This document shows positions 21,765 to 59,196 of a DNA stretch of 64,000 nt, in pieces. The notes beneath the pieces are model-generated. The model saw nothing but the letters and a program-made list of their open reading frames with translations. It searched no databases and was not told where the DNA came from. This DNA comes from Chthoniobacterales bacterium (lineage in GTDB: Bacteria; Verrucomicrobiota; Verrucomicrobiia; Chthoniobacterales; UBA10450), in assembly GCA_038230335.1 (NCBI GenBank), contig JBBRNL010000003.1, forward strand, positions 59,085 through 123,084, given 5' to 3'. How positions within the stretch are numbered: the stretch's first letter is position 1; the number at the start of each line of letters is the position of its first letter. Made by a program: the position numbers and the translations under genes.

Positions 21765-22757
21765 ATGAAACAAAATATTACACTGTTGTTCCCCCTGAAG
21801 AATCACGCTGTTTTTCTGATGGCGCTGGGCGCGGCGGCTGGACTCTCTTTCTTCGCGTCGCCCAGTGCGAACGCCCAGGTATCCGACAGGCGTCGTCCCC
21901 GTCCCGACTTTGGACCGACCGGACCTACGGGCGCGACAGGTCCAGCGGGCGTCATGGGCAACACCGGAGCCACCGGCTCCACTGGAGCGGCTGGCGCCAT
22001 GGGGACGGCGGGTGCTAACGGAGCGACCGGACCTTCCGGAGCAACCGGGCAGAATGGCGCGACTGGCGCGCAGGGTCCAATGGGCACAACGGGTACGACT
22101 GGCATGATCGGTGCAACCGGAGTCACCGGCGCGACGGGAGCATTAGGCGCGACCGGAGCCACTGGTCCGACCGGACCCGAGGTTTCTTCAGCATTCGCTT
22201 ACGTTTACAACGTCGCTGCGGAAACGGTCGCCACTGGTGTTTCGGTTGCGTTCAGCAACAGTGGGCCGGCTCAAAACATAACACTCACAGGCACGACAGG
22301 TTTAGTCTTGGGCACGGACGGGACATACCTTCTGGAGTTTCACGTCCGCGGCAGTTCTTCGAGTTCCGGTGCGATCGTATTTCAACTCGATGCCGATGGT
22401 ATTCAAATTCCCGGATCGGAATATTCCAGCCAACTCCCGCCGGCCGCCGCGATTTCTTTTCAAAAATTGCCCGAGGTCCAAGCCGTCTCCAACAGCTCCA
22501 CGGTCGCGGTCAACGGTATTGTCACGGCTGGATTGACGGCTGGAACGCTTGTCAGCCTGCAAAATGCGACTCCGCTGTTGGCCAGCGTCACTCTCCCCGC
22601 GGATGTAAACAGCCCGGTGAACGCTTCTCTGCGCATCGAGCGAATTGGGCCATTGACTGGTGCCACTGGGGCGACCGGTCCCACTGGTTTCACTGGTCCA
22701 ACTGGCCCGACCGGGATCACTGGCCCGACGGGGATCACTGGCCCGACCGGTCCTTAA
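21765..22757 (+). CDS. collagen-like triple-helix-repeat protein (G-x-T repeats flanking a globular domain), secreted
   Basis: A signal peptide is followed by about 90 aa of [22 protein letters not shown]..., then a globular region of about 150 aa, then a second [32 protein letters not shown] tract running to the C-terminus. Confidence 0.8.
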
Positions 22758-25050: not shown

Positions 25051-25122
25051 TGGGCGGTGAGGGTTTCGAACCCCCGACCCTCTCGGTGTAAACGAGACGC
25101 TCTACCGCTGAGCTAACCGCCC
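25051..25122 (-). tRNA. tRNA-Val (anticodon TAC)
   Basis: The reverse complement folds by hand into a cloverleaf: acceptor GGGCGGT/ACCGCCC, D-arm GCTC-AGCGGTA-GAGC, anticodon arm TCTCG-TTTACAC-CGAGA and T-arm GGGGG-TTCGAAA-CCCTC. The discriminator is A and no CCA is encoded. Confidence 0.9.
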
Positions 25123-25584: not shown

Positions 25585-25779
25585 TTGGTAAAACTAACGA
25601 AGGACATCAAACCCATGACTAACCAATCCAAAAAAAGCAAGAAACTCCGGTTGAATAAAGAAACATTGAAAGACCTGGGTGATCGAAACGCGGGGCAAGT
25701 TAAAGCGGGAAATAAGGCCGCTAATGCGGTGGCCCCGGGAGCTTCAAACAGAGGAACCGCAGTACAGACGATGTGTTAA
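25585..25779 (+). CDS. lanthipeptide-type RiPP precursor peptide, copy 1 (core ends ...NRGTAVQTMC)
   Basis: ORF 25585..25779 (TTG), with an alternative ATG at 25615 (54 aa). The leader KLRLNKETLKDLGDRNAGQVKAG is followed by a Ser/Thr-containing core with a single C-terminal Cys. It lies directly upstream of the LanD-LanC and LanB genes. Confidence 0.75.
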   Translation: MVKLTKDIKPMTNQSKKSKKLRLNKETLKDLGDRNAGQVKAGNKAANAVAPGASNRGTAVQTMC

Positions 25780-25852
25780 GCATGGTCGCGACTTAACATC
25801 CAAACGATAATCAATTCTCTGTTAACAAAAACTAACTAACGAATAGACCCAC

Positions 25853-26017
25853 ATGACAAAGTTGACCAAAAAAAGCCCAAAACTCCGGTTGAATAAAGAA
25901 ACATTGAAAGACCTGGGTGATCGAAACGCGGGGCAAGTTAAAGCGGGTAATAAGGCCGCTAATGCGGTGGCCAGGGGAGGTTCAAACGGAGCGACCGCAG
26001 TACAGACGATGTGTTAA
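25853..26017 (+). CDS. lanthipeptide-type RiPP precursor peptide, copy 2 (54 aa, not in the ORF track)
   Basis: Hand translation gives MTKLTKKSPKLRLNKETLKDLGDRNAGQVKAGNKAANAVARGGSNGATAVQTMC*. It is a tandem paralogue of copy 1 with a 238-bp period. The leader DNA is nearly identical and the core diverges. Confidence 0.75.
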   Translation: MTKLTKKSPKLRLNKETLKDLGDRNAGQVKAGNKAANAVARGGSNGATAVQTMC

Positions 26018-26301
26018 GCATGGTCGCGACTTAATATCCAAACGATCAGCAATTCTCTGTTATCGGAAGGCCGACCGCTGGAGGTAAATCCACAAACGTG
26101 CCGATGATGTCCCGAGGCGGCGACGGCGCACAGGTTTTGTGCTAAGACGATTAGCATTAGGCGAACTTCATGCGGGGGTTTCCCGTCGCCACCAACCGAT
26201 GAGTTGCTAGCGGTGCGGTGAGTACACAACTGCACCGCCAGAGTGCGGGGCAGATTAAATAGCCAAACCGGGTTGGATGGCGTTAGGCTTTGGCCGTATC
26301 A

Positions 26302-28467
26302 ATGCCATCGCGGTCTGACTCCATACGTTACCTGCGCAACCCGACGACGGTTGCGATCGGACAGCGCGATCGGTTCATCTTCATTCGCGAGGATGGCCAC
26401 GTCGTTGTCGACGAGGCAGGAAAACCGGATTTTGTTTCGGCGATTCTAGGCGCGCTCGGCGAGCCCCGTTCCGTGGCTGAGGTGGCACGGGCTGTTCGTC
26501 ACCCAAACGGCCGAGTTCGCTCGATTGTCCGGCAACTGGTCCGCGCGAAAGCCGTCGCCGTCGGATCGGAAAAGCTCCTTTTTACCGACGGTCCGGGAAT
26601 CTCCCGTCGGGCAAAGCCATGTCGGTGTTTGGTGCTCGGCATTTCCGGAGCTGCGCAAGCCATGTCCATCCTCTCTTTGGTGGCGAAACTGCACGAGGTT
26701 TTCGCGGAGCAGATTGATATCATCCTGACCGATGCGGCGCGGCAATTTGTGCAGCGAGAGGCCTTTTCGGCTCTTGGCGTCGAAGTCTGGCAGGATTTAT
26801 TCGAGCGGAGAGAACTCGTCAAAGTCCCGCACATGTATCTGGCCAAACGAGCCGATTTGGTCGCGATCATTCCTGCCAGCGCCCATACAATTCATCGGCT
26901 GGCGGCGGGCGAATGCTCTGATTTGTTATCGGTGGTGGTAGCGGCAACCCGGGCGCCCGTCGTGGTGGCCCCGAGCATGAATCCCAACATGCGGCACCAT
27001 CCCTCCGTGCAGCGTAATATTGCGCAGCTCCGCGCGGATGGCGTTTACGTGATTGAGCCCGCCTGGGGAATCGAGTTGAGTCGCGGCGAGAGCAGGCACA
27101 CTTCTCTGGGCAGCATCGGGGTCAACGAAAAGAATGCGCCACTTGCGTTCGAGACGGTGATGAGATTTGCCGGGCAAATAAAACGTTCTCGATCCACCTC
27201 CGCCGCGGAGTGCTGGCAGCCAATTTTAGAAAAGAATGCGCGCAGCGCGGCGCTCGAGGCGATTCAAGCGATCGCTCACCAACTGCGAAGGGTGCGGCTG
27301 AAAGACGCAAGCCTTGGCTTCGGCCACGCTGGGGTAGCCCTCTTTTTCGCCTACTTGCGTCGGGCGCGTCTGGACATCGGCGGGAACGATAGTGCGCAAA
27401 GATGGATCAACCGCGCCACCGAAACCGTCGGTTCGACCAGAATGTCTGCTTCCCTCTTCGGTGGGTTTACCGGGGTGGCGTGGGTTATGGAGCACCTTTA
27501 CGGCTGGCCTGGAGATACGGAAAAATCCGATCCGAACGGAGCCATCGACGAAGCCTTGAAAGGCTATCTTCGGTTATCCCCCTGGCGAAGAGATTACGAT
27601 CTGATCGAAGGATTGGTTGGTTTCGGAGTATACGCTTTGGAACGAATGCCGCGGCCCAGCGCCATTGATTGCTTGAACCTGGTGGTGGAACGCTTGAATG
27701 AAATTGCCGTGCGGACCGGTGAAAAAGTCACATGGTTTACTCCCCCCAAATTACTTCCGCCCTGGCAGCGAAAGGTTTGTCCCGAAGGCTATTTTAATCT
27801 GGGCGTGGCCCACGGCGTGCCCGGCGTAATCGCTTTCCTTGGTCAAGTTTCTGCGATTAACGACCAGCGTCTGACCACTCGCGTTCTCGCTCGCTCGCTC
27901 CTTAACGGAGCCGTGGCATGGCTGCTCGAGCAAAGGTCTAGCGAAGGTTCCGGCGTGGTGTTTCCCAACTGGATTGGTCCCAAAGTTCACGACATGCCAC
28001 CTCGCCTTGCCTGGTGTTACGGCGATTTTGGCGTTGCGTGCGCTTTGCTGGCAGCCGCGCGTTGCGCGGGGAAGAAGACGTGGGAAGACGCCGCCCTCGT
28101 GATTGCTCACCGTGTCGACCGGCGCCACAGAGAGGTGTCCGATATCCCCTACTGCGGGCTCTGTCACGGTGTGGCGGGCGGGGGACATATGTTTAATCGT
28201 CTCTTTCAAGCCACGGGCGAGCGCGCTTTCAAAAAGGCGGCGCAGAATTGGTTTTCTCGGACATTGGAATTGCGCCGGCCTAACGGTGGCATCGCGGGCT
28301 TTCACTTTTTGCGCCACGAGGGAAAAGCCGGGACTCGCTGGCTCAATGATCCTGGCCTGGTCGAAGGCGCTGCTGGGGTAGGACTGGCCTTGCTTGCGGC
28401 TGTATCGAGTGTCGAACCGTTGTGGGACCGTACCATGCTCTTGTCGATTCCTCCTCGAAATCAATGA
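26302..28467 (+). CDS. fusion protein: N-terminal ~105-aa domain + HFCD flavoprotein (LanD/EpiD-like Cys decarboxylase) + LanC-like lanthionine cyclase
   Basis: ORF 26290..28467 (TTG), with ATG at 26302. The HFCD motifs are LVLGISGAAQA, VPHMYL, IIPASAHTIHRLAAGECSDLL and VVAPSMNPNMRHHP (compare EpiD PASANT and PxMNxxMW). The LanC motifs are SLFGGFTGVAW, GVAHGVPGV, WCYGDFG and GLCHGVAGG (the Zn ligands Cys and Cys-His). Confidence 0.85.
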   Translation: MPSRSDSIRYLRNPTTVAIGQRDRFIFIREDGHVVVDEAGKPDFVSAILGALGEPRSVAEVARAVRHPNGRVRSIVRQLVRAKAVAVGSEKLLFTDGPGISRRAKPCRCLVLGISGAAQAMSILSLVAKLHEVFAEQIDIILTDAARQFVQREAFSALGVEVWQDLFERRELVKVPHMYLAKRADLVAIIPASAHTIHRLAAGECSDLLSVVVAATRAPVVVAPSMNPNMRHHPSVQRNIAQLRADGVYVIEPAWGIELSRGESRHTSLGSIGVNEKNAPLAFETVMRFAGQIKRSRSTSAAECWQPILEKNARSAALEAIQAIAHQLRRVRLKDASLGFGHAGVALFFAYLRRARLDIGGNDSAQRWINRATETVGSTRMSASLFGGFTGVAWVMEHLYGWPGDTEKSDPNGAIDEALKGYLRLSPWRRDYDLIEGLVGFGVYALERMPRPSAIDCLNLVVERLNEIAVRTGEKVTWFTPPKLLPPWQRKVCPEGYFNLGVAHGVPGVIAFLGQVSAINDQRLTTRVLARSLLNGAVAWLLEQRSSEGSGVVFPNWIGPKVHDMPPRLAWCYGDFGVACALLAAARCAGKKTWEDAALVIAHRVDRRHREVSDIPYCGLCHGVAGGGHMFNRLFQATGERAFKKAAQNWFSRTLELRRPNGGIAGFHFLRHEGKAGTRWLNDPGLVEGAAGVGLALLAAVSSVEPLWDRTMLLSIPPRNQ

Positions 28468-31400
28468 CGAAAACCCGCGATTATTCCGCGTTCCAAGTCG
28501 CGGACTTTTTCGTTCTGCGGACACCGCTGCTCTCTTTCGACGAATTTTTGAAATGGAGCGATGGCTTGAAGGCACCCCAGGCGATGAGCGATCCCGTGAG
28601 TTTGCCCGAAGCGATCTCGGCCGATCGGCAGAAACTTGGGCTCGCCCTGCGCGAAATCATGTCGCGGCCGGAGGTGCGGGAAGCGCTCTTCGTTGCATCG
28701 CCTGAACTGGAAGGAACTTTTTCTTTGTGGAACGGCCAGCCGGAGACCGAGCGAAGCCGTGGCATCGACCTATCGATGGCACGATATTTCTCCCGCATGA
28801 CGGGCCGGGCCACGCCTTTCGGCCTGTGCGCCGGTTGTTCCGTGGGAAAGATCGGTGCAGTCGCAGCTCTTAGGATCGCCGAGCGATCGAGCTGGAAAAA
28901 GCACACCCAGCTGAGTGTGGAATATTTGTCCGCCCTGGCCGATTCGTTAGGGAGCGATGCAACCGTGCGGGACGCTTTCCTCTATTGGCCGAATTCCAGC
29001 CTGTATCACATGGCTGGCCATTTTCGCTATCTGGAGCGATTCAAAAAGGCCGGCAAAGCGCACTCTTATCATCTGGTGGCGGTGGAAGATTCGGAAGCTC
29101 TTACTGAGATTCTTCAACGAGCCGGGAATGGCGCGCTTTTTTCCGATCTGGTTTCCTCCGTGACAACCGCTGAGATCTCTTCCGCCGAGGCCGCGGAATA
29201 TGTGCAGGACCTGATCGACAACCAAATCCTGATTCCAGATATCATCCCACCGGTCACGGGAGAGGAACCAGCCGAAGTTTTCGTGCAGCGCCTAAGAGAG
29301 CATCTTCCCACAAGTCCGGTGGCCGCCAAGATAGCTGCGGTCAACGAGAGTCTGGCCGCCATGGACCGCACGGGAGTGGGCACCTCCCCGCAGGCCTATC
29401 GCGACGTTGCAACTCTTCTTCAGTATCTCCCGGTCGCAGCCGAACTATCGCACTTGTTTCACATCGACATGATCAAGCCGGCGGGTGAGCTGACGTTGAG
29501 CCAGGCTGTCTTGAACGAGTTGCTGCACGGCGTAAGAATTCTTCATTCCCTAGCCCGGCCAGATGCAACTGCCGCTCTTCTGACGCCGTTTCGCCAGGCT
29601 TTCGTTGACCGTTACGACCGGGAGGCGGTGCCGATCCTGGAGGCGCTGGATGAAGAAGCCGGAATTGGATTCCCAGTCTCGCCCACCTTCGATGCAGCTT
29701 CTCCTTTGCTTAAAGGACTTACGTTTTCGAATCCGGTTTCTCCGACTCAGCCGTGGTCTACCCGCGAGAAATTCCTGCTCCATAAGTTAGGGGAGGCGCT
29801 CAGCCAAGGCGCTCAGGAGATCGTTCTCGACGAGCACGAACTGGACGAAATCGCTCACCCGACGCGATTCGATCTGCCGGATGCATTCGCGGTTATGGCC
29901 AGAGTAGCGGCCGCTTCGGAAGCCGCGATGAATGAAGGCGATTTCCGCGTCTTCGTCACCGGTGTCAATGGACCCTCCGGCGCATTCTTTTTCGGTAGAT
30001 TCTGCCATGCGGCGCCCGATCTTAGCGCGCACGTCCGCGAACACCTGCGCGCGGAGGAACAATTGCGCCCGCACGCCATTTTCGCCGAGATTGCATACTT
30101 GCCTGACGGTCCTTTTGGAAATCTGGCCGTGCGACCAGTCCTGCGGGAGCATGAGATTCCCTGCTTCACGCCTTCCGGCGTAAGTCACGATAAGCAAATC
30201 GAGCTGGCTGATTTATTTCTCAGGGTTCGCGGGGATCGTGTAATTCTTTTTTCAAAGAGCAGGGATCGCGAAGTGATTCCGCGGTTGACCAGCGCTCATG
30301 ACTTCGACCGACAAGGCCCGCCTCTGTATCGTTTCCTTTGTGCCCTGCAAGATCAGGGGACAGCGCCGCTCGGATGGGATTGGGGAGATCTGTGGGGCGC
30401 GCCATTCCTTCCCCGGGTCGTTTGCGGGAAAATCGTTTTGGCTCGTGCGCGCTGGTTGGTCACCGCCAAAGAGATCGTTCCGCGTCAACCGGATCCCGCC
30501 GCATCCTTCGCCGCCTTGCAGAAATGGAGGGCCGACCACCGGGTCTGCCGATTTGTCGCCTTGGTAGAGGGCGAAGGCGATCAGGCACTTGCCTTGGATC
30601 TCGACAACGTTATTTGCGTTGAGATTTTGCTCCGAAAACTGAAGCCCGGTGTGGAACTCGCCCTTCTCGAGATGTTTCCCAGTCCGGATCTGCTGCCCGT
30701 GTCTGCACCGGACGGTCGTTACACGCACGAGTTAATTGTCCCTTTCGTGCGGACGCGATTAACCGGTGTCCCGATTGTGCCGTCCTCAGCCAGGATTAAT
30801 CAGGGTCTTACCGTCGGGGCGCGGGTCTTCCCACCCGGTTCCGAATGGCTTTACGCAAAACTCTATTGCGGCCCGGTGACGGTGGATCGTTTGCTCCGCG
30901 GAATGGTCGCTCCGCTCGTAAAGGAATTCGCCGGCGCCGGCGCGATCGACCGCTGGTTTTTCATTCGCTACCGCGATCCGGATTGGCATTTGCGCCTTCG
31001 GTTTCACGGAAAGATTCGCGATTTGCAGGAGACGGTGCGCCCGGCCCTTGAGAAAGCAGCGGAGTCTTTGCTCGATGGCCGCGAAATCAGACGCGTTCAA
31101 TTCGATACCTATGAACGTGAGATTGAGCGATACGGGGGATTGGAGGCGATGCTCTTGAGCGAGCAACTGTTTCAGGCCGACAGCGAGGCGATTCTGTCGC
31201 TTCTCGATGGACTCGCACAATCTGGCGCAGATGCGGATCAGCGTTGGCGGGTAGCCTTGCTCGGCTTAGACAGATTATTGTCTGACTTTGAATTCAATCT
31301 CCCAACCAAGCGCGCGATCGTCGAAAATTGGAGGTTGGATCTGGCTCGGGAGTTCCAGGTGAATGCCGGGATGAAAAAAGAATTAAGCGATCGATTCCGC

Positions 31401-31694
31401 CAGGAGCGCAAAGCCCTCGAAGGGTGGCTTTCAAAACCATCAGAGGCGAGCGAGGCGTCCGCCATGAGCGAAAAAGTATTTCGACAACGATCGGGAGAGA
31501 TTATTCCGATCGTCGCGAGCCTGAAGACAATTGAAAAAACGAATGGGTTGACCTCCCCGCTCTCAATGCTGGCCGCTTCCTACCTGCACATGCACGTCAA
31601 CCGCCTCCTTATCTCTACTCATCGGGCACACGAATTGGTTTTGTACGACTTCCTTGTGCGCCTCTATGATTCGAAGATCGCTCTTGCTCGTTGA
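28464..31694 (+). CDS. lanB: full-length class I lanthipeptide dehydratase (LanB: glutamylation + elimination domains)
   Basis: ORF 28422..31694. The ATG at 28464 overlaps the upstream stop (ATGA). The N-terminus FQVADFFVLRTPLLSFDEF is typical of Lant_dehydr_N. The C-terminal WLYAKLYCG...IDRWFFIRYRDPDWHLRLRFHG is typical of the SpaB_C/elimination domain. The product is 1076 aa. Confidence 0.9.
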   Translation: MTKTRDYSAFQVADFFVLRTPLLSFDEFLKWSDGLKAPQAMSDPVSLPEAISADRQKLGLALREIMSRPEVREALFVASPELEGTFSLWNGQPETERSRGIDLSMARYFSRMTGRATPFGLCAGCSVGKIGAVAALRIAERSSWKKHTQLSVEYLSALADSLGSDATVRDAFLYWPNSSLYHMAGHFRYLERFKKAGKAHSYHLVAVEDSEALTEILQRAGNGALFSDLVSSVTTAEISSAEAAEYVQDLIDNQILIPDIIPPVTGEEPAEVFVQRLREHLPTSPVAAKIAAVNESLAAMDRTGVGTSPQAYRDVATLLQYLPVAAELSHLFHIDMIKPAGELTLSQAVLNELLHGVRILHSLARPDATAALLTPFRQAFVDRYDREAVPILEALDEEAGIGFPVSPTFDAASPLLKGLTFSNPVSPTQPWSTREKFLLHKLGEALSQGAQEIVLDEHELDEIAHPTRFDLPDAFAVMARVAAASEAAMNEGDFRVFVTGVNGPSGAFFFGRFCHAAPDLSAHVREHLRAEEQLRPHAIFAEIAYLPDGPFGNLAVRPVLREHEIPCFTPSGVSHDKQIELADLFLRVRGDRVILFSKSRDREVIPRLTSAHDFDRQGPPLYRFLCALQDQGTAPLGWDWGDLWGAPFLPRVVCGKIVLARARWLVTAKEIVPRQPDPAASFAALQKWRADHRVCRFVALVEGEGDQALALDLDNVICVEILLRKLKPGVELALLEMFPSPDLLPVSAPDGRYTHELIVPFVRTRLTGVPIVPSSARINQGLTVGARVFPPGSEWLYAKLYCGPVTVDRLLRGMVAPLVKEFAGAGAIDRWFFIRYRDPDWHLRLRFHGKIRDLQETVRPALEKAAESLLDGREIRRVQFDTYEREIERYGGLEAMLLSEQLFQADSEAILSLLDGLAQSGADADQRWRVALLGLDRLLSDFEFNLPTKRAIVENWRLDLAREFQVNAGMKKELSDRFRQERKALEGWLSKPSEASEASAMSEKVFRQRSGEIIPIVASLKTIEKTNGLTSPLSMLAASYLHMHVNRLLISTHRAHELVLYDFLVRLYDSKIALAR

Positions 31695-31958
31695 GCATTC
31701 TCACGCAGTAGGCGCCGTGCCTGATGACGCAACTACCGCGTGCGCCTGCTGCCTTGAGGGCAAAAGGAACTAACGAGTATCATGATTGCCGGCGGCAACG
31801 GCTGAGCCTGTTCAATCTTCGAGAACACCCGGTTATTATCATCTTGTATTTTGGCCGAGTGGGCGGTATTTGCATAACTAATCACCGCAGGGTCTGTCGC
31901 TGTTCTCGAGCCTTTGCCCCTGTATTAATCGAAAGAGAAAGAGAAAGAGAAGGTAAGT

Positions 31959-32117
31959 ATGAAAAAGCCAATCAAATCCCCGAAAGGGACGAAGATCAAA
32001 GATATGGTGCCGAGGAAAGATGCCAAAGGTGGCGGCTCCAAGGCTCCCGGCGGCGTGGTCTCACCGAGCGGAATCCAAGCGAATCACAACGAAACCTTCG
32101 TTTGCGACGGTTGCTGA
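31959..32117 (+). CDS. candidate third precursor peptide (52 aa, ends ...NHNETFVCDGC), conflicts with the 5' end of the TPR ORF
   Basis: Hand translation gives MKKPIKSPKGTKIKDMVPRKDAKGGGSKAPGGVVSPSGIQANHNETFVCDGC*. A purine-rich SD-like gagaagg lies 6 nt upstream. It has a KGG-type leader end and a C-terminal Cys. It overlaps ORF 32020..33108 by 98 nt in another frame. Confidence 0.4.
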   Translation: MKKPIKSPKGTKIKDMVPRKDAKGGGSKAPGGVVSPSGIQANHNETFVCDGC

Positions 32118-33108
32118 GCGGAAGGCGGAAAATTTACGGCGCTGCGCCGATCGTGCGTGGGAGGGTGGGCAGTTCGCAAAAGCGGAGGCTTTTTACAATC
32201 GCAGCATTGGTGAGCTGAAGATATGCGTCGCGGGCTCCTGTCACGTTCGCACCTATTCAGGGTTGGGGAATCTGTACCGCTTTCTCGGGCGGTATCGTGG
32301 GGCGGAGTTGTCCCTGAGAACGGCTCTTCGCGCAGCGCTTGGCACTTTCGGCGATAGGGCGCAGGAGACCTGTGCTGTCCGCAACGACTTGGCGGTCTTA
32401 TTTAAGTATACGGGCCGCTTCCGTGAAGCAGCGGCTATTTTCCATCGTTTGTTGAAACTATCCACTTCGCCGAGGGCTGTGGAATTTTTAGAGGTCGCGA
32501 CCATTTATCATAATCTCGGTGGCCTCGAGCATGCCCGTGGCTCGTTCGAGCGGGCCGAGCGGTTCGCGCGTCAGGCAATCGAACTTCGCAAGCAGTCGCA
32601 TGGGCCGAATCACCACGCTGTGGCAGAGGACGCGGTGGCGCTCGGTGCGATCCTGGTCGAGCGCGGGAAATATCCCGAGGCGGAGCGTCTTTATAAAATG
32701 GCACTTCGCACTTTTCGGAGAAAGATCGGTTCCCACCGTTACAATATTGCCGTCGCTTTAAACAACCTGGCTGCTCTTCATCAGGCGCGCGGGGAACTCG
32801 CGACAGCTAAGCGATTCTACATGAAAGCCCTTGCCCTGAAGACGCAGCTCTTTGGTCGGAAACACGTGGATGTCGCGTTAACGCTCAACAACCTCGCTGT
32901 CCTACAGAAAACTCGCGGGGAATGGACGGCAGCGATCAGTTATTACAAGGAGGCGCGCGCAATCTTTGAAGCCGTTCTGCCTCCAGATCATCCGAAGCTC
33001 ATCAAGTGCCGCGCAAACCTGGCCAAGCTTCTGCATGAACAGGCATTGCGAAACATTCGGCCGCCGGCAAGGAAAGACAAAAAAGAGAGAGCCTGCGCCA
33101 TGCGATGA
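32020..33108 (+). CDS. tetratricopeptide-repeat protein (TPR_12 / kinesin-light-chain-like repeats)
   Basis: The repeats include YSGLGNLYRFLGRYRGAE, YHNLGGLEHARGSFERAERFARQAIEL, LNNLAALHQARGELATAKRFYMKALAL and LNNLAVLQKTRGEWTAAISYY. The first ~30 aa (Pro/Ala/Arg-rich) may not be translated, so the true start is uncertain. Confidence 0.8.
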   Translation: MPKVAAPRLPAAWSHRAESKRITTKPSFATVAERKAENLRRCADRAWEGGQFAKAEAFYNRSIGELKICVAGSCHVRTYSGLGNLYRFLGRYRGAELSLRTALRAALGTFGDRAQETCAVRNDLAVLFKYTGRFREAAAIFHRLLKLSTSPRAVEFLEVATIYHNLGGLEHARGSFERAERFARQAIELRKQSHGPNHHAVAEDAVALGAILVERGKYPEAERLYKMALRTFRRKIGSHRYNIAVALNNLAALHQARGELATAKRFYMKALALKTQLFGRKHVDVALTLNNLAVLQKTRGEWTAAISYYKEARAIFEAVLPPDHPKLIKCRANLAKLLHEQALRNIRPPARKDKKERACAMR

Positions 33109-34773: not shown

Positions 34774-36861
34774 ATGAAAACTAGCAATGTTTTTTGCGCG
34801 AGCACAGTTCTCCTGCCTGCGTTGCTTTTTATTCCCTGTCATCTTTTGCTTGCGAAAGATAAGCCGATCCATCCGCCGGGCGACCATTTGACCCCTTCGC
34901 CGCTGTGCGCCTGGACGGATCAAGGCGTGATGAGAGGTGAAAAGCCGGACACGCAAATAATCGTGTCGAAGACCCATGTTGTACTCGTAACGACTGGTAG
35001 CTTGGGTTTCTTTGACAAGAAAGGAAACCGACTGGCGGTCGCATCGACTACGGATTTCTTCACTAACAACAAAACAAGAATGCCCGACGGCACGTTGATG
35101 TCGGATTTCCTCGTCGCGCATAAAGGTGAAAAACCGGTGTGGGGTTTTGGCGATTGCAAGGCCCTGTACGATCCGTATCGCAACCGTTTTTGGTTCCTCG
35201 CCACTTTTAACAACGCTTATCCAGGAGATGGCCAGATGTTCTGGGCCGTTGGTGTTTCAGATAGCAGTGATCCGACCCAGGGCTGGCGTACTTTTGTTCT
35301 GCCGGCTCATCGACGCGACGACAAACGCTATACCAATTCCGATTTTCCGATGCTCGGACTGGATAAGGAAGCGTTTTACGTTTCGGTCTGCGTTCTGATT
35401 GGCAATCCGGAGGTTCGCGCCCAGAACTACTGGTATGTGCTCGCCTTGAACGCCGACGACGTGGCCGCCGGAAAGGATCTGGCTTCAGTAAAAACAGCTG
35501 AACTCGATCACTGGCCCGATCCCGAAACTCATAAACCACTCGCGCGCGGAATTCTAATGCCAGCGATTCCAACCGGACTCAAAGAGACAAAGTCGGGAAT
35601 GAAGTTCGCCGGCGCTCTGGGTAAAAACACCGGCATTTGGTCGTTACGAAATCCGTTCAGTCTGCATCCGGAGATCCGAACGTGGACAGTGCCGATCAGC
35701 TCCCGCGGCCCGGGTTCAGCCGGCGTAAAACAACGACAGAAAGGAACGCCGGAACTCGCGCCGATTGCGTTGGGCGGTGCGATTGTGAGCGTGACCCAAT
35801 CGGGCGACGATCTGTATCTCGTTTCGCAAGACGTCATCCAAGGCGCAGATAAACACCCTCATACCGCCGTTCGCTTCAGTCAGGTGATATGTCCTGGGCC
35901 ATTCGGTCAGCCTCCCCGCGTCACCAAGGACATTAAGTATGGCGCCCAATCGCCCGAGGAACGGGACGCGAACCTGAACTACACCATTCCTTCCGCCATG
36001 ATTAACAAAAACGGCGATGCCATCGTCGTCGAAAACAGTGTAGGCCCGAGCGTCCATCAGGAAGCGCGCGCTTCGGCGATTTATCACGACAGCAGCTCGG
36101 CTGATTGGAGCGCACTAATTAAGACGGGCGAGGGCGCGAATACCGGCGGATGGGGCGATATTGCGAAGGCATCTCTGGATCCTTCCGATAACATCGGCAT
36201 CTGGGTTGCCACCCAATACGGCGCCGGTCATCACGCGCACCTCGCCATCGGCAAATTTTTGTCGGGACAAACAAGCCGCATCTCCGATGGCTGGCCCGGA
36301 TTATGGGCCAACACTGTCCAGGCCGCCACGGTGTGGCCTAACGGCAAACTTTATTTTTTCCGTGGCAGCGAATACATCCGCTACGACGTCGCGAGTAGCA
36401 AAGCAGATCCCGGATATCCGCAAACGATCGCAAAGGCATGGCCCGGGATTTGGCCGGAGGGATTCGATGCTGTGGCGGCCTGGCCTAACGGGAAGGCCTA
36501 CTTCTTTCGCGGCGATCAATATCTCCGCTACGACATCAGAACGGATAAAGTGGACGATGGCTATCCCAAGCCAATCACTTACGCCTGGTCCGGAGTATGG
36601 AAGGATGGAAAGATCGACGCGGTCGTTGTCTGGCCTAACGGGAAGGCCTATTTTTTCCGCGGCGATCAATACATTAGTTACGATATCAAGGCGGACAAGG
36701 CGGACGCGGGGTTCCCCAGGCCGATCGCGAATGATTGGCCCGGGCTTTGGGTCGATGGAGTCGATGCCGGAGTCGCTCTTCCGAGCGGAGCCGTCTATTT
36801 CTTTAAACGAAGCGATGTTTTCCGCGGCAAAGCAGCGGAGCTGCCCGCTGCCGCCCCTTAA
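34774..36861 (+). CDS. secreted protein with unknown N-terminal region and C-terminal four-blade hemopexin-like repeat domain
   Basis: Signal peptide. From about nt 36285 to 36830 there are four repeats of W-P-N-G-K-x-Y-F-F-R-G-x-x-Y-x-x-Y-D ... D-x-G-Y-P-x-x-I ... W-x-G-x-W, which is the hemopexin/MMP-type blade motif. Confidence 0.8.
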   Translation: MKTSNVFCASTVLLPALLFIPCHLLLAKDKPIHPPGDHLTPSPLCAWTDQGVMRGEKPDTQIIVSKTHVVLVTTGSLGFFDKKGNRLAVASTTDFFTNNKTRMPDGTLMSDFLVAHKGEKPVWGFGDCKALYDPYRNRFWFLATFNNAYPGDGQMFWAVGVSDSSDPTQGWRTFVLPAHRRDDKRYTNSDFPMLGLDKEAFYVSVCVLIGNPEVRAQNYWYVLALNADDVAAGKDLASVKTAELDHWPDPETHKPLARGILMPAIPTGLKETKSGMKFAGALGKNTGIWSLRNPFSLHPEIRTWTVPISSRGPGSAGVKQRQKGTPELAPIALGGAIVSVTQSGDDLYLVSQDVIQGADKHPHTAVRFSQVICPGPFGQPPRVTKDIKYGAQSPEERDANLNYTIPSAMINKNGDAIVVENSVGPSVHQEARASAIYHDSSSADWSALIKTGEGANTGGWGDIAKASLDPSDNIGIWVATQYGAGHHAHLAIGKFLSGQTSRISDGWPGLWANTVQAATVWPNGKLYFFRGSEYIRYDVASSKADPGYPQTIAKAWPGIWPEGFDAVAAWPNGKAYFFRGDQYLRYDIRTDKVDDGYPKPITYAWSGVWKDGKIDAVVVWPNGKAYFFRGDQYISYDIKADKADAGFPRPIANDWPGLWVDGVDAGVALPSGAVYFFKRSDVFRGKAAELPAAAP

Positions 36862-56835: not shown

Positions 56836-59196
56836 TTACAAACTGGGGAGGCGATCCGCCGATGAATCGCTCGCGAGGGCCAGGCTGATGGCATTCCACC
56901 ATTGGCCGTGCAGATCCTCAACCGGCCACCTGAAACACTCCCCGTCCGTGCGGACGATCAAATCGACTCCTCCAACCCAGCCGAGTTGCGATGCGCTTAC
57001 GTCGGACGAGCGCAAGGTTTCCAAAGCTTTTTCCGCGTCGCCCGAAGCAATCGAAAGGATGATGCGCGACTGAGATTCATTGAAAAGGGAAACTGCGGCG
57101 CCGGGTGAGTCCTCCGCGTCGGCCGGAGCGCGACGGCTACAGGCATCGAGATCGATCTCGGCGCCGACCGGTCCCTTCGGGTTGAAGCAGCATTCGGCCA
57201 GGGCCACAGCGATTCCGCCTTCGCTGCAGTCGTGCGCACTTTTGACCCACCCGGAGAGGATCAATTTGCGCACGGCTTGGTGGACCGCGATTTCCCGGGG
57301 GAGATCGATCTTCGGCACCGGACCTTGCTTTAGGCCGTGACAGACTTTCAGAAATCTTGAGGCGCCCAACCCGGGGTCATCCATTGCTGCGGCCGAGTGG
57401 ACGAGGATGATGACGTCTCCCGTTTGCTTGAACCATTGCGTGGTGATGTGTCGCTCGTCGTCGATTAAGCCGACCATGCCGACAGTGGGCGTGGGATCGA
57501 CCACTCCGGCGGGGCTCTCATTATATAGAGAGACATTTCCGCCAACCACCGGAGTGCCAAAGGCCCGGCAGGCTTCGGCCACGCCCTCGACCGATTCACG
57601 TAGCTGCCAGAAATTTTCCGGCTTATATGGATTCCCGAAATTCAGATTGTCCGTGACGGCGAGGGGACGGGCGCCCGAGCAGGTTAGATTCCGGGCTGCT
57701 TCGGCCACGGCGATTTTGCCGCCGGCGCGTGGATCGAGAGAACAGTAGAGCGAATTACAATCGGTCGTGGCCGCCAGAATCTTGTTCGCATATTTGACAT
57801 GGAAGACAGCAGCGTCAGATCCGGGCTTAACGATGGTACCGGTTCGCACGGTATGATCGTACTGGCGGTAGACCCAATTTTTGGAAGCGATGGTCGGATC
57901 GCGCAGCAACTGCCGAAGAGATTCCACCACAGATGAGGCAGAAATCGCCGAGATTTTGTTCAGTAACTCGGCGTTCTCCGCGATCGCTCCGGTTGGCTTC
58001 GTCGCTTCGCGCGAATAGAGAGGGGCTTCATCGGCCAGCGGCTTGGCTGGAATTTCAGCTGCGATCACTCCGTGGTTAAGGACCCGCATCATGCCGTCGT
58101 CCGTGACGCGACCGATCTCGGCGCAAGGGACATCCCATTTCTCGAAAATTTCGCGCACGATCGTTTCGCAACCCTGCTTCGCGATGATCAACATCCGCTC
58201 CTGCGATTCGCTCAACAGGATCTCGTAGGGAGTCATTTCCGTCTCCCGTTTCGGCACTTTGGCCAGGTCGATCTCCACTCCGCTGTTTCCGCGACTGGCC
58301 GTTTCGCAGGTCGAGCAGGTTAAGCCGGCCGCGCCCATGTCTTGAATTCCGGCGACGGCGTCGCGGGCGAGGAGTTCGAGACAGGCCTCGAGCAAAAGCT
58401 TTTCCTTGAACGGATCACCCACCTGGACAGCGGGCCGGTCTTCGCGGGATTCTTCGGTCAGTTCGCGCGAAGCGAAGGCGGCGCCGGCGAGGCCATCGCG
58501 TCCGGTTTCAGCGCCAACGTAAAAGACCGGGTTGCCCACGCCGCGGGCGGCGCCGCGCGCGAGTTGATCGTGCCGAAGGACTCCGAGACAAAAGACATTG
58601 ACGAGAGGATTTCCTTCGAAACTTTCGTCGAAATAAATCTCTCCACCGATCGTCGGAATTCCGATGCAGTTCCCGTAGTGGGCGATGCCAGAGACGACGC
58701 CGGTGAACAAGCGGCGGTTGTTAGGAATGTCGGATTTCGGATTTCGGATTTCGGATTTGGCGGGGGCTACGATCGGTCCGAAGCGCAATGAGTTGAGGCA
58801 AAACTCCGGGCGGGCGCCCATCGTGAAGATGTCCCGAATGATTCCGCCGACGCCGGTGGCTGCGCCCTGGAAGGGTTCGATCGCGCTGGGGTGATTGTGA
58901 CTTTCGATCTTGAACGCGATGGCCCAGCCATCGCCGATGTCGACCACGCCGGCATTTTCTTCGCCGGCCTTGACCAGAACATTAGGTCCCGTGGTGGGAA
59001 ATTTTTTGAGCTCTTTGCGCGAATTCTTGTAGGAACAGTGCTCACTCCACATGACCGAGAAAATCCCGAGCTCGGTAAAGTTCGGGTCGCGCCCGAGGAT
59101 GGTTTTGATGCGTTCGAATTCGTCCGGGGTGAGCCCGTGCCTGGCCACAAGGTCGGGAGTTACGGTGGGCGCGGCGATTGGATTGGGCATCGTCAC
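56836..59196 (-). CDS. purL: phosphoribosylformylglycinamidine synthase subunit PurL (FGAM synthase II)
   Basis: 786 aa. GIFSVMWSEHCSYKNS, ESHNHPS and NFGNP are present. Confidence 0.95.
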   Translation of the reverse strand: MTMPNPIAAPTVTPDLVARHGLTPDEFERIKTILGRDPNFTELGIFSVMWSEHCSYKNSRKELKKFPTTGPNVLVKAGEENAGVVDIGDGWAIAFKIESHNHPSAIEPFQGAATGVGGIIRDIFTMGARPEFCLNSLRFGPIVAPAKSEIRNPKSDIPNNRRLFTGVVSGIAHYGNCIGIPTIGGEIYFDESFEGNPLVNVFCLGVLRHDQLARGAARGVGNPVFYVGAETGRDGLAGAAFASRELTEESREDRPAVQVGDPFKEKLLLEACLELLARDAVAGIQDMGAAGLTCSTCETASRGNSGVEIDLAKVPKRETEMTPYEILLSESQERMLIIAKQGCETIVREIFEKWDVPCAEIGRVTDDGMMRVLNHGVIAAEIPAKPLADEAPLYSREATKPTGAIAENAELLNKISAISASSVVESLRQLLRDPTIASKNWVYRQYDHTVRTGTIVKPGSDAAVFHVKYANKILAATTDCNSLYCSLDPRAGGKIAVAEAARNLTCSGARPLAVTDNLNFGNPYKPENFWQLRESVEGVAEACRAFGTPVVGGNVSLYNESPAGVVDPTPTVGMVGLIDDERHITTQWFKQTGDVIILVHSAAAMDDPGLGASRFLKVCHGLKQGPVPKIDLPREIAVHQAVRKLILSGWVKSAHDCSEGGIAVALAECCFNPKGPVGAEIDLDACSRRAPADAEDSPGAAVSLFNESQSRIILSIASGDAEKALETLRSSDVSASQLGWVGGVDLIVRTDGECFRWPVEDLHGQWWNAISLALASDSSADRLPSL

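What the first reader, a model, noticed from the sequence alone, without database searches (positions are those of the whole stretch)
25585..33108. Compact class-I-lanthipeptide-type RiPP cluster (tandem precursors, LanD-LanC fusion, LanB, TPR) in a PVC-like genome
Seen in the sequence: two tandem small ORFs end in ...TAVQTMC. They are followed by a 721-aa ORF with HFCD flavoprotein motifs (IIPASAHTIHRLAAGECSDLL, APSMNPNM) and LanC motifs (GVAHGVPG, WCYGDFG, GLCHGVAGG). Its stop overlaps (ATGA, 28464-28467) the start of a 1076-aa LanB with both a glutamylation-type N-terminus and the WFFIRYRDPDWHLRLRF elimination domain. Established knowledge: LanB plus LanC defines class I lanthipeptide biosynthesis. 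LanD-type HFCD enzymes (EpiD, MrsD) oxidatively decarboxylate a C-terminal Cys to give AviCys or AviMeCys. Inference: the product is a short peptide with up to three dehydrations and, because the core has only one Cys, a single C-terminal amino-vinyl-(methyl)cysteine ring. That would be a much simpler topology than epidermin-type lantibiotics. To my knowledge lanthipeptides from this phylogenetic neighbourhood are essentially uncharacterised.
Basis: partly seen in the sequence, partly recalled or inferred. Interest (0 to 1): 0.9.

Follow-up and report, generated by a model that had tools for sequence, protein, structure and literature searches.

The report
Fused decarboxylase–cyclase lanthipeptide gene cluster
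A soil-type Verrucomicrobia genome carries a small, intact lantibiotic-type peptide gene cluster in which the enzyme that decarboxylates the peptide's last cysteine is fused to the ring-closing enzyme. Each peptide has only that one cysteine, so the cluster is a natural minimal system for asking which enzyme closes the aminovinyl-cysteine ring.

Summary
Two tandem 54-aa genes end in TAVQTMC. They are followed by one ORF with Flavoprotein (HFCD) and LANC_like domains, whose stop overlaps (ATGA) a full-length LanB.

New findings:
- The fusion protein has three domains. An N-terminal winged-helix, RRE-like domain precedes the HFCD domain.
- Only this protein has the HFCD–LanC architecture among 1.84 billion representative proteins.
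- The two closest relatives (loci L087 and L091) have the same module as separate genes. Each has two tandem precursors with a single C-terminal Cys, then N-domain–HFCD, then LanC, with the two enzyme genes overlapping by 40–50 nt. The junction alignment shows a true evolutionary fusion: a net 23-nt shortening, and the LanC ATG changed to ATA.
- No HFCD gene occurs in 80 other loci of this LanC clade.
- The host is probably Chthoniobacterales (Verrucomicrobiota, PVC group).

Best reading: LanB dehydrates Ser/Thr, the HFCD domain decarboxylates Cys22, and the fused LanC closes an Avi(Me)Cys ring.

What remains unproven: the ring position, the chemistry, leader removal and export (no protease or transporter gene in the 64 kb), the role of the TPR gene, and a possible third precursor.

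Verdict: a new variant of a known kind, of moderate to high interest.

The parts
25615..25779 (+). Precursor gene A1 (54 aa). Predicted leader: MTNQSKKSKKLRLNKETLKDLGDRNAGQVKAG. Predicted core: NKAANAVAPGASNRGTAVQTMC (Ser12, Thr16, Thr20, one Cys at the C-terminus).
   Evidence: ORF. The leader HMM from related loci gives E 4.4e-11. NCBIfam NF038153 lant_leader_L1a scores 19.9 bits, below its cutoff of 22. The leader/core boundary is placed by analogy with ...KGG/...KAG in related precursors.
25853..26017 (+). Precursor gene A2 (54 aa). Predicted core: NKAANAVARGGSNGATAVQTMC. It differs from A1 only at core positions 9, 11, 14 and 15 and at the extreme N-terminus of the leader.
   Evidence: Leader HMM E 5.5e-10. 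NF038153 scores 18.8 bits.
25590..26062 (+). Tandem duplication carrying the two precursor genes (two 235-nt copies, 238-nt period, 88% identity).
   Evidence: the repeat finder.
26302..28467 (+). Three-domain modification enzyme (721 aa from the ATG at 26302; 725 aa from the TTG at 26290). Domain order: winged-helix/RRE-like, then HFCD Cys decarboxylase, then LanC cyclase.
   Evidence: Pfam. The exact 721-aa protein is on record as P0001 from NCBI and Logan. It is the only full-length hit among 1.84 billion representative proteins.
26308..26562 (+). N-terminal domain (aa 7-91). It has four short strands followed by three helices. It is shared with stand-alone N-domain-HFCD proteins and with HFCD-methyltransferase fusions. 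It is probably a leader-peptide recognition element.
   Evidence: The AF2 model has pLDDT 80-89 over this part. Homology is shown. Pfam gives only weak winged-helix hits and no PqqD hit. Foldseek is not significant, but RRE structures (TbiB1, ThcOx, PbtF) appear in the top 17.
26629..27177 (+). HFCD flavoprotein domain (Pfam aa 114-255; the fold extends to about aa 296). Active-site His181 (VPH) and Asn231 (PSMN) are present. The clamp region, aa 257-290, has no Cys.
   Evidence: Pfam. The closest solved folds are the RiPP Cys decarboxylases SpaF (7cfu) and TvaF (6jls), then CoaBC, MrsD and EpiD. His181 is invariant and Asn231 nearly invariant in 41 homologs.
27178..27180 (+). Fusion point. 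Codon ATA (Ile297) stands where relatives have the ATG start codon of a separate LanC gene.
   Evidence: Junction alignment of the window, L087 and L091; sequences.
27304..28440 (+). LanC cyclase domain (aa 339-717), with Asp437, His508, Arg572, Cys576, Tyr577, Cys625 and His626.
   Evidence: Pfam E 7e-39. These residues are invariant or nearly invariant in 40 homologs. They align with the DYD, AHG, R..WCYG and CHG motifs of NisC and MadC.
28464..31694 (+). LanB dehydratase (1076 aa). Its start overlaps the fusion gene's stop (ATGA at 28464-28467).
   Evidence: Lant_dehydr_N 2.3e-154 and Lant_dehydr_C 2.8e-68. TIGR03891 scores 230 bits. Overlap shown.
31959..32117 (+). Candidate third precursor (52 aa): MKKPIKSPKGTKIKDMVPRKDAKGGG|SKAPGGVVSPSGIQANHNETFVCDGC. 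It also ends in Cys. Unverified.
   Evidence: ORF. Pfam and NCBIfam give no hit, and the leader HMM does not match (E 27). Codon-usage scoring is compatible with coding but not decisive. No homolog was found in the related loci.
32020..33108 (+). TPR protein (TPR_12/TPR_10 repeats). It lies on the same strand directly downstream. Its membership of the cluster is uncertain, and so is its start codon.
   Evidence: Pfam and NCBIfam. It has no detectable counterpart in L087 or L091. The first 37 codons score as non-coding. The ORF as drawn from 32020 is not in the protein collection.

Best explanation
This is a compact, probably functional class I lanthipeptide-type RiPP operon in a Chthoniobacterales-like Verrucomicrobium.

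Proposed pathway:
1. Two nearly identical precursors carry a conserved 'KKLxLNKETLKDL...VKAG' leader and a roughly 22-residue Ala/Gly-rich core with three Ser/Thr and one Cys, which is the last residue.
2. LanB dehydrates Ser/Thr through glutamyl-tRNA.
3. The three-domain enzyme then acts. Its N-terminal winged-helix domain holds the leader. Its HFCD domain oxidatively decarboxylates Cys22 to an enethiol. The covalently attached zinc-dependent LanC domain adds that enethiol(ate) to a Dhb or Dha (from Thr16, Thr20 or Ser12), giving a C-terminal S-aminovinyl-(methyl)cysteine macrocycle.

Fusing the decarboxylase to the cyclase would keep the reactive enethiol next to the cyclase. This parallels the LanD-LanX fusions of class Va.

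Shown: gene order, domain identities, intact catalytic residues, precursor family membership, uniqueness and evolutionary origin of the fusion, and the conserved single C-terminal Cys in relatives.

Inferred: every chemical step, the order of steps, the ring position, the role of the N-terminal domain, and leader removal and export by genes encoded elsewhere.
For: Domains and catalytic residues:
- Pfam places both large ORFs well above cutoff: Flavoprotein plus LANC_like, and Lant_dehydr_N plus Lant_dehydr_C.
- The LanC zinc ligands and acid/base residues are conserved.
- HFCD His181 is invariant and Asn231 nearly invariant, and the clamp has no reducing Cys (and the sequence itself). The closest folds are the peptide Cys decarboxylases SpaF and TvaF.

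Precursors:
- They belong to a leader family found next to LanC in Acidobacteriota, Planctomycetota and Myxococcota. The leader HMM gives E 4e-11 and 5.5e-10.
- The differences between A1 and A2 cluster in the middle of the core, while the leader and the C-terminal heptapeptide are kept.

Relatives:
- The two closest relatives of the N-domain-HFCD half (P0263 at 53% and P0268 at 49% identity) lie directly upstream of, and overlap, a LanC gene (54-57% identical to the window's LanC domain).
- Each is preceded by two tandem precursors that have a single Cys as the last residue. So 6 of 6 peptides in 3 loci share this feature.
- None of 80 other LanC loci of the clade has an HFCD gene.

Fusion is real:
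- The junction differs from relatives by a net 23 nt, and ATG has become ATA.
- The sequence is identical in an independent assembly.

Other:
- Translational coupling to LanB through the ATGA overlap.
- Literature: HFCD decarboxylation of a C-terminal Cys, followed by Michael addition, gives Avi(Me)Cys (PMC8549060). LanD-LanX fusions exist where LanX is the AviMeCys cyclase (PMC12291118).
Against: - No chemistry has been observed.
- No Ser or Thr sits at the known AviCys spacings (rings of the C-terminal 4 or 6 residues). Here the options are i+2, i+6 and i+10.
- The related loci L087 and L091 have no LanB within reach, and their only Ser/Thr is 13-23 residues from the Cys. So the shared HFCD-LanC module may do something other than close a compact AviCys ring.
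- About 37% of precursors in HFCD-less loci of this family also end in Cys, so a C-terminal Cys alone is weak evidence.
- The 64-kb window has no protease, transporter or immunity gene.
- The HFCD domain scores below every NCBIfam equivalog cutoff: CypD 27 against 215, CoaBC 107 against 219.7.
- The RRE assignment of the N-domain is not significant by Pfam or Foldseek.
- LanD-like enzymes themselves have been reported to cyclise (bioRxiv 10.1101/2020.02.13.947028), so LanC need not be the AviCys cyclase.
Confidence: 0.62

Rival explanations
1. The HFCD domain decarboxylates the C-terminal Cys, but the ring closes spontaneously or on the HFCD domain itself. The LanC domain would then be a scaffold or leader-binding partner, or would serve another substrate such as the two-Cys peptide of the candidate third precursor.
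For: LanD-like flavoproteins (TvaF, CypD) have been reported both to decarboxylate and to cyclise (bioRxiv 10.1101/2020.02.13.947028). Reviews state that the cyclisation step could be spontaneous, LanD-catalysed or LanC-catalysed (PMC8549060). A possible second substrate type exists at 31959-32117.
Against: All LanC catalytic and zinc-binding residues are maintained. LanC is the conserved partner, overlapping or fused, of this HFCD in three loci whose peptides have no other Cys to cyclise. The candidate third precursor is unsupported by homology.
Confidence: 0.17
2. The product carries an ordinary (methyl)lanthionine made by LanC from the C-terminal Cys thiol. The HFCD domain would be inactive or would do some other flavin chemistry.
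For: LanB plus LanC alone is enough for a Lan/MeLan ring. About 37% of related precursors without any HFCD nearby also end in Cys. The HFCD domain fails every NCBIfam equivalog cutoff.
Against: HFCD His181 is invariant and Asn231 nearly invariant, with the FMN-binding motifs conserved across 41 homologs. The best structural matches are peptide Cys decarboxylases. The HFCD gene is found only with the single-C-terminal-Cys peptides and in none of 80 other LanC loci. A domain under no selection would not stay intact in three diverged loci (46-53% identity).
Confidence: 0.1
3. The cluster is a silent or decaying remnant. The fusion would be a by-product of a deletion, and no mature peptide is made, because export, protease and immunity genes are missing.
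For: No LanT, LanP or LanFEG-type gene occurs in 64 kb. The fusion arose by deletion at the gene junction. It is a singleton among 1.84 billion representatives.
Against: All ORFs are intact over 5.4 kb, with catalytic residues preserved. The deletion restores the reading frame exactly. The precursor duplicates keep the leader and C-terminus while varying the mid-core. About 40% of related LanC loci also lack an adjacent LanB or transporter, so dispersed genes are normal in this clade.
Confidence: 0.07
4. The single ORF is a sequencing or assembly artefact that joins two overlapping genes.
For: The closest relatives have two genes overlapping by 40-50 nt in different frames. One of them (L087) itself shows signs of frameshift errors in neighbouring genes.
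Against: The window differs from both relatives by two gaps totalling 23 nt and by loss of the ATG, not by one indel. An independent Logan assembly of the reads gives the identical sequence.
Confidence: 0.03

Closest known systems
Epidermin/gallidermin/mutacin 1140-type class I lantibiotic clusters (LanA, LanB, LanC, LanD = EpiD)
   Same: The enzyme set is the same: a tRNA-dependent LanB dehydratase, a zinc-dependent LanC cyclase and an HFCD flavoprotein acting on a precursor that ends in Cys. The expected end product carries a C-terminal aminovinyl-cysteine.
   Different: - LanD is fused to LanC and carries an extra N-terminal winged-helix domain.
- The core has one Cys only, so no Lan/MeLan rings are expected besides the Avi(Me)Cys.
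- No Ser or Thr sits at -3 from the Cys.
- No LanP, LanT or LanFEG gene is present.
- The leader is of the Acidobacteriota/Bacteroidota 'LxLNKETL...GG' type, not the FNLD type.
- The host is a Verrucomicrobium.
- The HFCD domain is nearer to TvaF, SpaF and CoaC than to EpiD.
Class Va lanthipeptide LanD-LanX fusions (rosin-type, PMC12291118)
   Same: A Cys decarboxylase is fused to the protein that closes the AviMeCys ring. The rationale is the same: keep the enethiol intermediate on a complex.
   Different: The partner here is a zinc-dependent LanC fold, not a kinase-fold LanX. Dehydration is by LanB, not by LanK/LanY.
Unfused N-domain-HFCD plus LanC modules in metagenome contigs L087 (ERZ26871208) and L091 (SRR28401839)
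   Same: These are the direct relatives: 49-53% identity in the N-domain-HFCD half and 54-57% in LanC. Each has two tandem precursors with the same leader type and a single C-terminal Cys. L087 comes from a related organism (GDSL lipase 69% and an aldo-keto reductase 81% identical).
   Different: The two enzymes are separate genes overlapping by 40-50 nt. No LanB lies within the contigs. The cores have only one Ser or Thr, 13-23 residues from the Cys.
Thioamitide and linaridin decarboxylases (TvaF, CypD) and SpaF
   Same: They are the closest solved structures to the HFCD domain (6jls, 7cfu). All are peptide C-terminal Cys decarboxylases that lead to Avi(Me)Cys.
   Different: Those enzymes are stand-alone, have no N-terminal recognition domain, and work in pathways without LanB or LanC.

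Membership tests
Class I lanthipeptide biosynthetic cluster | Full-length LanB dehydratase (glutamylation domain plus elimination domain) | tested here: met
   PF04738 at 2.3e-154 covers model positions 2-649 of 649. PF14028 at 2.8e-68 covers positions 1-255 of 255. TIGR03891 scores 230 bits against a cutoff of 48.
Class I lanthipeptide biosynthetic cluster | LanC cyclase with zinc ligands (Cys-Cys-His) and the catalytic His/Asp/Arg/Tyr | tested here: met
   PF05147 at 7e-39. Asp437, His508, Arg572, Cys576, Tyr577, Cys625 and His626 are conserved in 40 homologs and align with the NisC and MadC motifs. The residue numbering of NisC comes from my own knowledge.
Class I lanthipeptide biosynthetic cluster | Precursor with a recognisable leader and a Ser/Thr- and Cys-containing core next to the enzymes | tested here: met
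   A leader HMM from 28 related precursors gives E 4.4e-11 and 5.5e-10, the only hits in the window. The curated NCBIfam NF038153 model scores 19.9 and 18.8 bits, just below its cutoff of 22.
Class I lanthipeptide biosynthetic cluster | Product contains lanthionine or methyllanthionine | not testable with these tools
   This needs MS/NMR of the product. With one Cys that is probably decarboxylated, the product may contain only Avi(Me)Cys and no Lan/MeLan.
LanD-type HFCD peptidyl-cysteine decarboxylase | HFCD flavoprotein fold with the active-site His (EpiD His67) and Asn (EpiD Asn117) | tested here: met
   PF02441 at 2.9e-22. Foldseek top hits are SpaF, TvaF, CoaBC, MrsD and EpiD, with probability 1.00. 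His181 is invariant and Asn231 nearly invariant in 41 homologs. The correspondence to EpiD residues comes from my own recall of the EpiD sequence.
LanD-type HFCD peptidyl-cysteine decarboxylase | No CoaB domain, and no clamp Cys that reduces the enethiol (which distinguishes it from CoaC/PPCDC) | tested here: met
   No PF04127 domain. No Cys in aa 257-290 (translation; alignment). The role of that Cys in CoaC is established knowledge.
LanD-type HFCD peptidyl-cysteine decarboxylase | Score above a curated equivalog model of a known RiPP decarboxylase | tested here: not met
   NF033753 CypD scores 27.3 bits against a cutoff of 215. It also falls below the CoaBC and CoaC cutoffs. It is a separate subfamily.
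LanD-type HFCD peptidyl-cysteine decarboxylase | Substrate peptide ends in Cys | tested here: met
   A1 and A2 end in Cys. All four precursors in the two related HFCD-LanC loci do as well.
LanD-type HFCD peptidyl-cysteine decarboxylase | Oxidative decarboxylation activity (-46 Da) and a trimer-based oligomer | not testable with these tools
   Needs biochemistry.
RiPP recognition element (PqqD-like winged helix) | Match to PqqD/RRE sequence models | tested here: not met
   No PF05402 hit for the window protein or for any of 41 homologs. Only weak winged-helix hits appear: TrmB, HTH_20, MarR_2 and DprA_WH.
RiPP recognition element (PqqD-like winged helix) | Fold of three strands followed by three helices, resembling solved RREs | tested here: inconclusive
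   The AF2 model of aa 1-337 gives pLDDT 80-89 for strands 14-41 and helices 46-85. The domain-only model is poor, with pLDDT 52.6. Its Foldseek hits include the RREs TbiB1, ThcOx and PbtF at E 0.07-0.24, which is not significant.
Epidermin-group lantibiotics | Several Lan/MeLan rings plus an S/T-x-x-C C-terminal AviCys motif; LanP, LanT and LanFEG genes | tested here: not met
   The core has one Cys, with Ser/Thr at -2, -6 and -10. The 64 kb contain no protease, ABC transporter or immunity genes.

The most novel reading that the evidence does not exclude
The window, L087 and L091 define a previously undescribed RiPP subfamily. Their peptides would have a single cross-link: an Avi(Me)Cys macrocycle of unprecedented size (7 to more than 14 residues). 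It would be made by a leader-guided (RRE-bearing) HFCD decarboxylase working as one unit with a LanC cyclase. In that case LanC, not LanD and not chance, would be the enethiol cyclase in LanC-containing pathways. The covalent three-domain enzyme in this window is the simplest natural tool to prove it.
Probability: 0.4. Interest if true: 0.75.

Novelty: new variant of a known kind. Interest (0 to 1): 0.58.

Why it matters
Which component closes the aminovinyl-cysteine ring in LanC-containing pathways (LanC, LanD or spontaneous chemistry) is stated as unresolved in the literature (PMC8549060; bioRxiv 10.1101/2020.02.13.947028). It was settled only for class Va, where a kinase-fold LanX does it and is sometimes fused to LanD (PMC12291118).

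In this cluster the substrate has a single Cys, and that Cys is the decarboxylation site. The only job left for a fully intact LanC domain is to handle the enethiol, and evolution has welded that LanC to the decarboxylase.

That gives a three-gene system (A, DC, B) in which mutating one domain at a time answers the question directly. It also:
- shows that HFCD decarboxylases can carry their own leader-recognition-like domain;
- extends AviCys-type chemistry to Verrucomicrobia;
- predicts ring sizes not seen before.

Tried and rejected
- Search for further HFCD-LanC fusions. The word-indexed search of 5.8 billion proteins and the exhaustive phmmer search of 1.84 billion representatives returned only the window's own protein.
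- GTDB genome scan with a LanC alignment. It gave 80 loci, none with an HFCD.
- Metagenome scan with the N-domain-HFCD alignment. The patterns were too generic and returned mostly CoaBC. No new LanC- or LanB-linked locus was found.
- RRE test of the N-domain. Pfam gave no PqqD hit. The domain-only AF2 model was of low confidence because alignment A4 misplaced helix 3, and its Foldseek hits were not significant.
- HFCD-methyltransferase fusions as a clue to function. Their contexts are not obviously RiPP clusters, so they do not inform this cluster.
- Candidate third precursor (31959-32117). It has no family hit, no leader-HMM match and no homolog in the related loci. A first codon score looked favourable, but a cross-validated test was inconclusive.
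- Attenuator or terminator between the precursors and the enzyme gene. Folding of 26010-26300 is no better than shuffles (z -0.51), and the promoter/terminator scan is at chance level.
- Rfam found only the tRNA.
- tRNA-Glu next to LanB. Rejected: the neighbouring tRNA is tRNA-Val.
- Sequencing artefact as the origin of the fusion. Rejected.

Full report
**1. What is there**

The region 25.6-33.1 kb carries, all on the + strand:
- Two 54-aa ORFs, A1 (25615-25779) and A2 (25853-26017). Both end in ...TAVQTMC and lie in a 238-nt tandem duplication that is 88% identical.
- A 285-nt spacer.
- One long ORF, 26290/26302-28467.
- A 1076-aa ORF, 28464-31694, whose ATG overlaps the preceding TGA (ATGA at 28464-28467).
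- A 264-nt spacer.
- A 52-aa ORF, 31959-32117.
- A TPR ORF, 32020-33108.

Pfam places the long ORF in Flavoprotein PF02441 (aa 114-255, E 2.9e-22) and LANC_like PF05147 (aa 339-717, E 7e-39). It places the next ORF in Lant_dehydr_N (E 2.3e-154, full model) and Lant_dehydr_C (E 2.8e-68, full model).

The flanks do not look like part of the system.
- Upstream lie a tRNA-Val (25051-25122, minus strand), a GDSL lipase and a DcuC-type transporter.
- Downstream lie a Kelch protein and a hemopexin-repeat protein.
- No ABC transporter, C39 or subtilisin-type protease, or immunity gene was found among the larger ORFs of the 64 kb.

**2. The precursors are real members of a leader family**

The nearest LanC homologs sit next to small genes with leaders of the form KKLxLNKETLxxL...(K/I)GG. 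These homologs are 50-56% identical and come mostly from Acidobacteriota, with some from Planctomycetota and Myxococcota.

I built an HMM from 28 such leaders, excluding the window's own, and scanned all 1473 stop-to-stop segments of the window. Only A1 (E 4.4e-11) and A2 (E 5.5e-10) scored. The curated NCBIfam leader model NF038153 sees them just below its cutoff, at 19.9 and 18.8 bits against 22.

By analogy with the ...KGG and ...VKAG leader ends of relatives, the cores are:
- A1: NKAANAVAPGASNRGTAVQTMC
- A2: NKAANAVARGGSNGATAVQTMC

Each has Ser12, Thr16, Thr20 and a single Cys22. The two genes are almost identical at nucleotide level in the leader and in the last seven codons. Their differences cluster at core positions 9-15. 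This is the pattern expected of diversifying RiPP cores.

**3. The enzyme has three domains, not two**

BLASTP and alignments show that aa 3-110, upstream of the HFCD domain, are homologous to the N-termini of two groups of proteins:
- a family of HFCD-methyltransferase fusions;
- a family of at least 55 stand-alone proteins of 270-350 aa with the architecture N-domain-HFCD (36-53% identity over about 90% of the query).

AF2 models this part with pLDDT 80-89, as four short strands followed by three helices. That is the layout of winged-helix RiPP recognition elements (RREs). The sequence and fold tests do not prove this:
- Pfam gives no PqqD hit in any of the 41 family members, only weak winged-helix families.
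- A domain-only model was poor. Its Foldseek hits to the RREs TbiB1, ThcOx and PbtF have E values of 0.07-0.24.

I therefore treat 'leader-binding domain' as an inference. One thing speaks for a peptide-directed role: other members of this N-domain-HFCD family sit in clearly RiPP-type neighbourhoods.
- L092: a class I cluster with split LanB, LanC, an ABC transporter and Cys-terminated precursors.
- L089/L090: YcaO-TfuA, radical SAM and a C39-ABC transporter.
- L088: PqqD plus DUF455.

**4. Both catalytic domains look active**

HFCD domain:
- His181 (VPH) is invariant and Asn231 (PSMN) nearly invariant across 41 homologs. By my recall of the EpiD sequence, they correspond to EpiD His67 and Asn117.
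- There is no CoaB domain.
- There is no Cys in the clamp segment aa 257-290. That Cys is what lets CoaC reduce the enethiol (established knowledge).
- The closest solved structures are the peptide Cys decarboxylases SpaF (7cfu) and TvaF (6jls), followed by CoaBC, MrsD and EpiD.
- It falls below all NCBIfam equivalog cutoffs, so it is a distinct subfamily.

LanC domain:
- Asp437, His508, Arg572, Cys576, Tyr577, Cys625 and His626 are invariant or nearly so in 40 homologs.
- They align with the DYD, AHG, R..WCYG and CHG motifs of NisC and MadC.

**5. The fusion is unique but has clear unfused relatives**

The word-indexed search of 5.8 billion proteins found only the window's own protein with both domains. 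So did the exhaustive phmmer search of 1.84 billion representatives. None of the 80 best GTDB loci for this LanC clade contains an HFCD gene within 8 kb, and 48 of them have a LanB.

The two closest relatives of the N-terminal half are P0263 (53% identity) and P0268 (49%). They lie in contigs L087 and L091 with the same layout:
- two tandem precursors;
- N-domain-HFCD;
- a LanC gene that starts 40-50 nt before the HFCD stop, in another frame.

L087 comes from a related organism. Its GDSL lipase is 69% identical and an aldo-keto reductase 81% identical to window genes.

Aligning the three junctions shows that both relatives keep CAATGCAA, the LanC start. The window is shorter by 11 + 12 nt and reads CAAATAAAA, in frame (Ile297, nt 27178-27180). 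A net 23-nt change plus loss of the start codon is an evolutionary event, not a base-calling slip. An independent Logan assembly of SRR19962015 is identical over 26005-31895.

**6. The single C-terminal Cys is the conserved substrate feature**

The four precursors of L087 and L091 have these cores:
- GGSRLGAADAPVRGANAGHLGAPMVC
- the same ending in ...PMIC
- RGGTHAPADPEKEVAIC
- GRRMTNAPEGPEEEAPIC

Each has one Cys, always the last residue, and one Ser or Thr. With the window, that makes 6 of 6 peptides in 3 loci.

About 37% of precursors from HFCD-less loci of this leader family also end in Cys, but those nearly all carry several Cys. The combination of one Cys, C-terminal, next to an HFCD and a LanC is what links the enzyme pair to that residue.

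HFCD enzymes oxidise the free thiol (PMC8549060). Decarboxylation must therefore come before thioether formation, and the only nucleophile left for LanC is the enethiol.

**7. Mechanism proposed**

1. LanB dehydrates Ser/Thr.
2. The N-domain docks the leader.
3. The HFCD domain converts Cys22 to the enethiol.
4. The fused LanC adds it to Dhb or Dha, giving Avi(Me)Cys.

The ring could span Thr20-Cys22, Thr16-Cys22 or Ser12-Cys22. None of these matches the reported AviCys rings of the C-terminal 4 or 6 residues (abstract of bioRxiv 10.1101/2020.08.21.260521). In L091 both peptides have the Thr 13 residues before the Cys, which hints at large rings.

The close parallel is class Va, where the AviMeCys cyclase LanX binds LanD and is fused to it in some clusters (PMC12291118).

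Uncertain points:
- the chemistry itself;
- the absence of LanB near the two relatives;
- leader removal and export;
- whether LanD or spontaneous chemistry, rather than LanC, closes the ring.

**8. Host**

PurL in the window (56836-59196) has relatives at 77-82% identity. The only named one among the 120 listed is a Chthoniobacterales MAG. That order lies in Verrucomicrobiota, PVC group. 'PVC-like' is therefore supported, though on thin naming evidence. I found no paper describing a characterised lanthipeptide from this phylum, nor a LanD-LanC fusion. That is absence from the open-access library searched, not proof.

**9. Elements of doubtful membership**

The TPR protein has no counterpart in L087 or L091. 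Its first 37 codons score as non-coding, and they overlap the 52-aa ORF at 31959-32117.

That small ORF ends ...NETFVCDGC and has a KDAKGGG motif suggestive of a double-glycine leader. It has no family hit, no match to the leader HMM and no homolog in the fetched loci, and its codon score is equivocal. I list it as a candidate only.

**10. Verdict**

A class I cluster with a LanD is a known kind; flavoproteins are among the commonest accessory enzymes of class I clusters (PMC7268733).

What is new:
- the covalent RRE-like-HFCD-LanC enzyme, a singleton in the databases searched;
- the small family of single-Cys precursors served by an HFCD-LanC pair;
- the Verrucomicrobial host.

I rate it a new variant of a known kind, with interest about 0.58.

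Noticed in passing
window 31959-32117 (+): A 52-aa ORF between LanB and the TPR gene: MKKPIKSPKGTKIKDMVPRKDAKGGGSKAPGGVVSPSGIQANHNETFVCDGC. It has a GG motif and also ends in Cys (CDGC). It overlaps the annotated start of the TPR ORF by 98 nt. It could be a third, divergent precursor, or a chance ORF.
   Followed up: partly
loci L004 (8001-9455), L005 (908-2446), L006 (1-1329); proteins P0091-P0101, P0322-P0349: A sizeable family, in Myxococcota-like genomes (one source name: Kofleriaceae), of three-domain proteins: the same N-terminal winged-helix domain, then HFCD, then a TPMT-like SAM methyltransferase. In L004 and L005 the adjacent small ORFs have lipoprotein-like signal peptides and end in ...PVG. 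Their function is unknown. One untested idea is decarboxylation coupled to S-methylation of the enethiol.
   Followed up: partly
loci L089/L090 (6621-10931) and L088 (9001-13649): Stand-alone N-domain-HFCD genes also occur in two other contexts. One is next to TfuA-YcaO, a luciferase-like oxidoreductase, a double C39-ABC transporter and a radical SAM/SPASM gene. The other is next to a PqqD protein and two DUF455 genes. This suggests thioamitide-like or other AviCys-type RiPPs outside the Actinobacteria.
   Followed up: no
loci L087 (2084-4792) and L091 (156-2879): The unfused relatives (precursors, HFCD, LanC) have no LanB within the contigs. Their cores have a single Ser or Thr 13-23 residues from the C-terminal Cys. 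L087 shows apparent frameshifts in neighbouring genes (an AIRS/AIRS_C split and overlapping TPR genes), so that contig may carry indel errors.
   Followed up: partly
loci L007-L086: In 32 of the 80 best GTDB loci of this LanC clade, no LanB was detected in the sequence fetched (up to 8 kb on each side of LanC). L002 is another such locus, with a precursor plus LanC only. Dispersed class I genes therefore seem common in Acidobacteriota and related phyla.
   Followed up: no
locus L075, about 7560 (+): A Planctomycetaceae precursor of the same leader family contains ...STTVQTMSASC..., which resembles the window's conserved C-terminal TAVQTMC.
   Followed up: no
window 25051-25122 (-): A tRNA-Val(TAC) gene lies directly upstream of the precursor genes. 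G+C in 24-26 kb is slightly lower (0.544) than the window average (about 0.57). This could mark an insertion site of the cluster. Not tested.
   Followed up: no
window 21765-22757 (+) and 34774-36861 (+): A collagen-like GxT/GxS triplet-repeat protein with a signal peptide, and a 695-aa protein with C-terminal hemopexin repeats (PF00045, 2.5e-38). Hemopexin repeats are, as far as I know, uncommon in bacteria.
   Followed up: no
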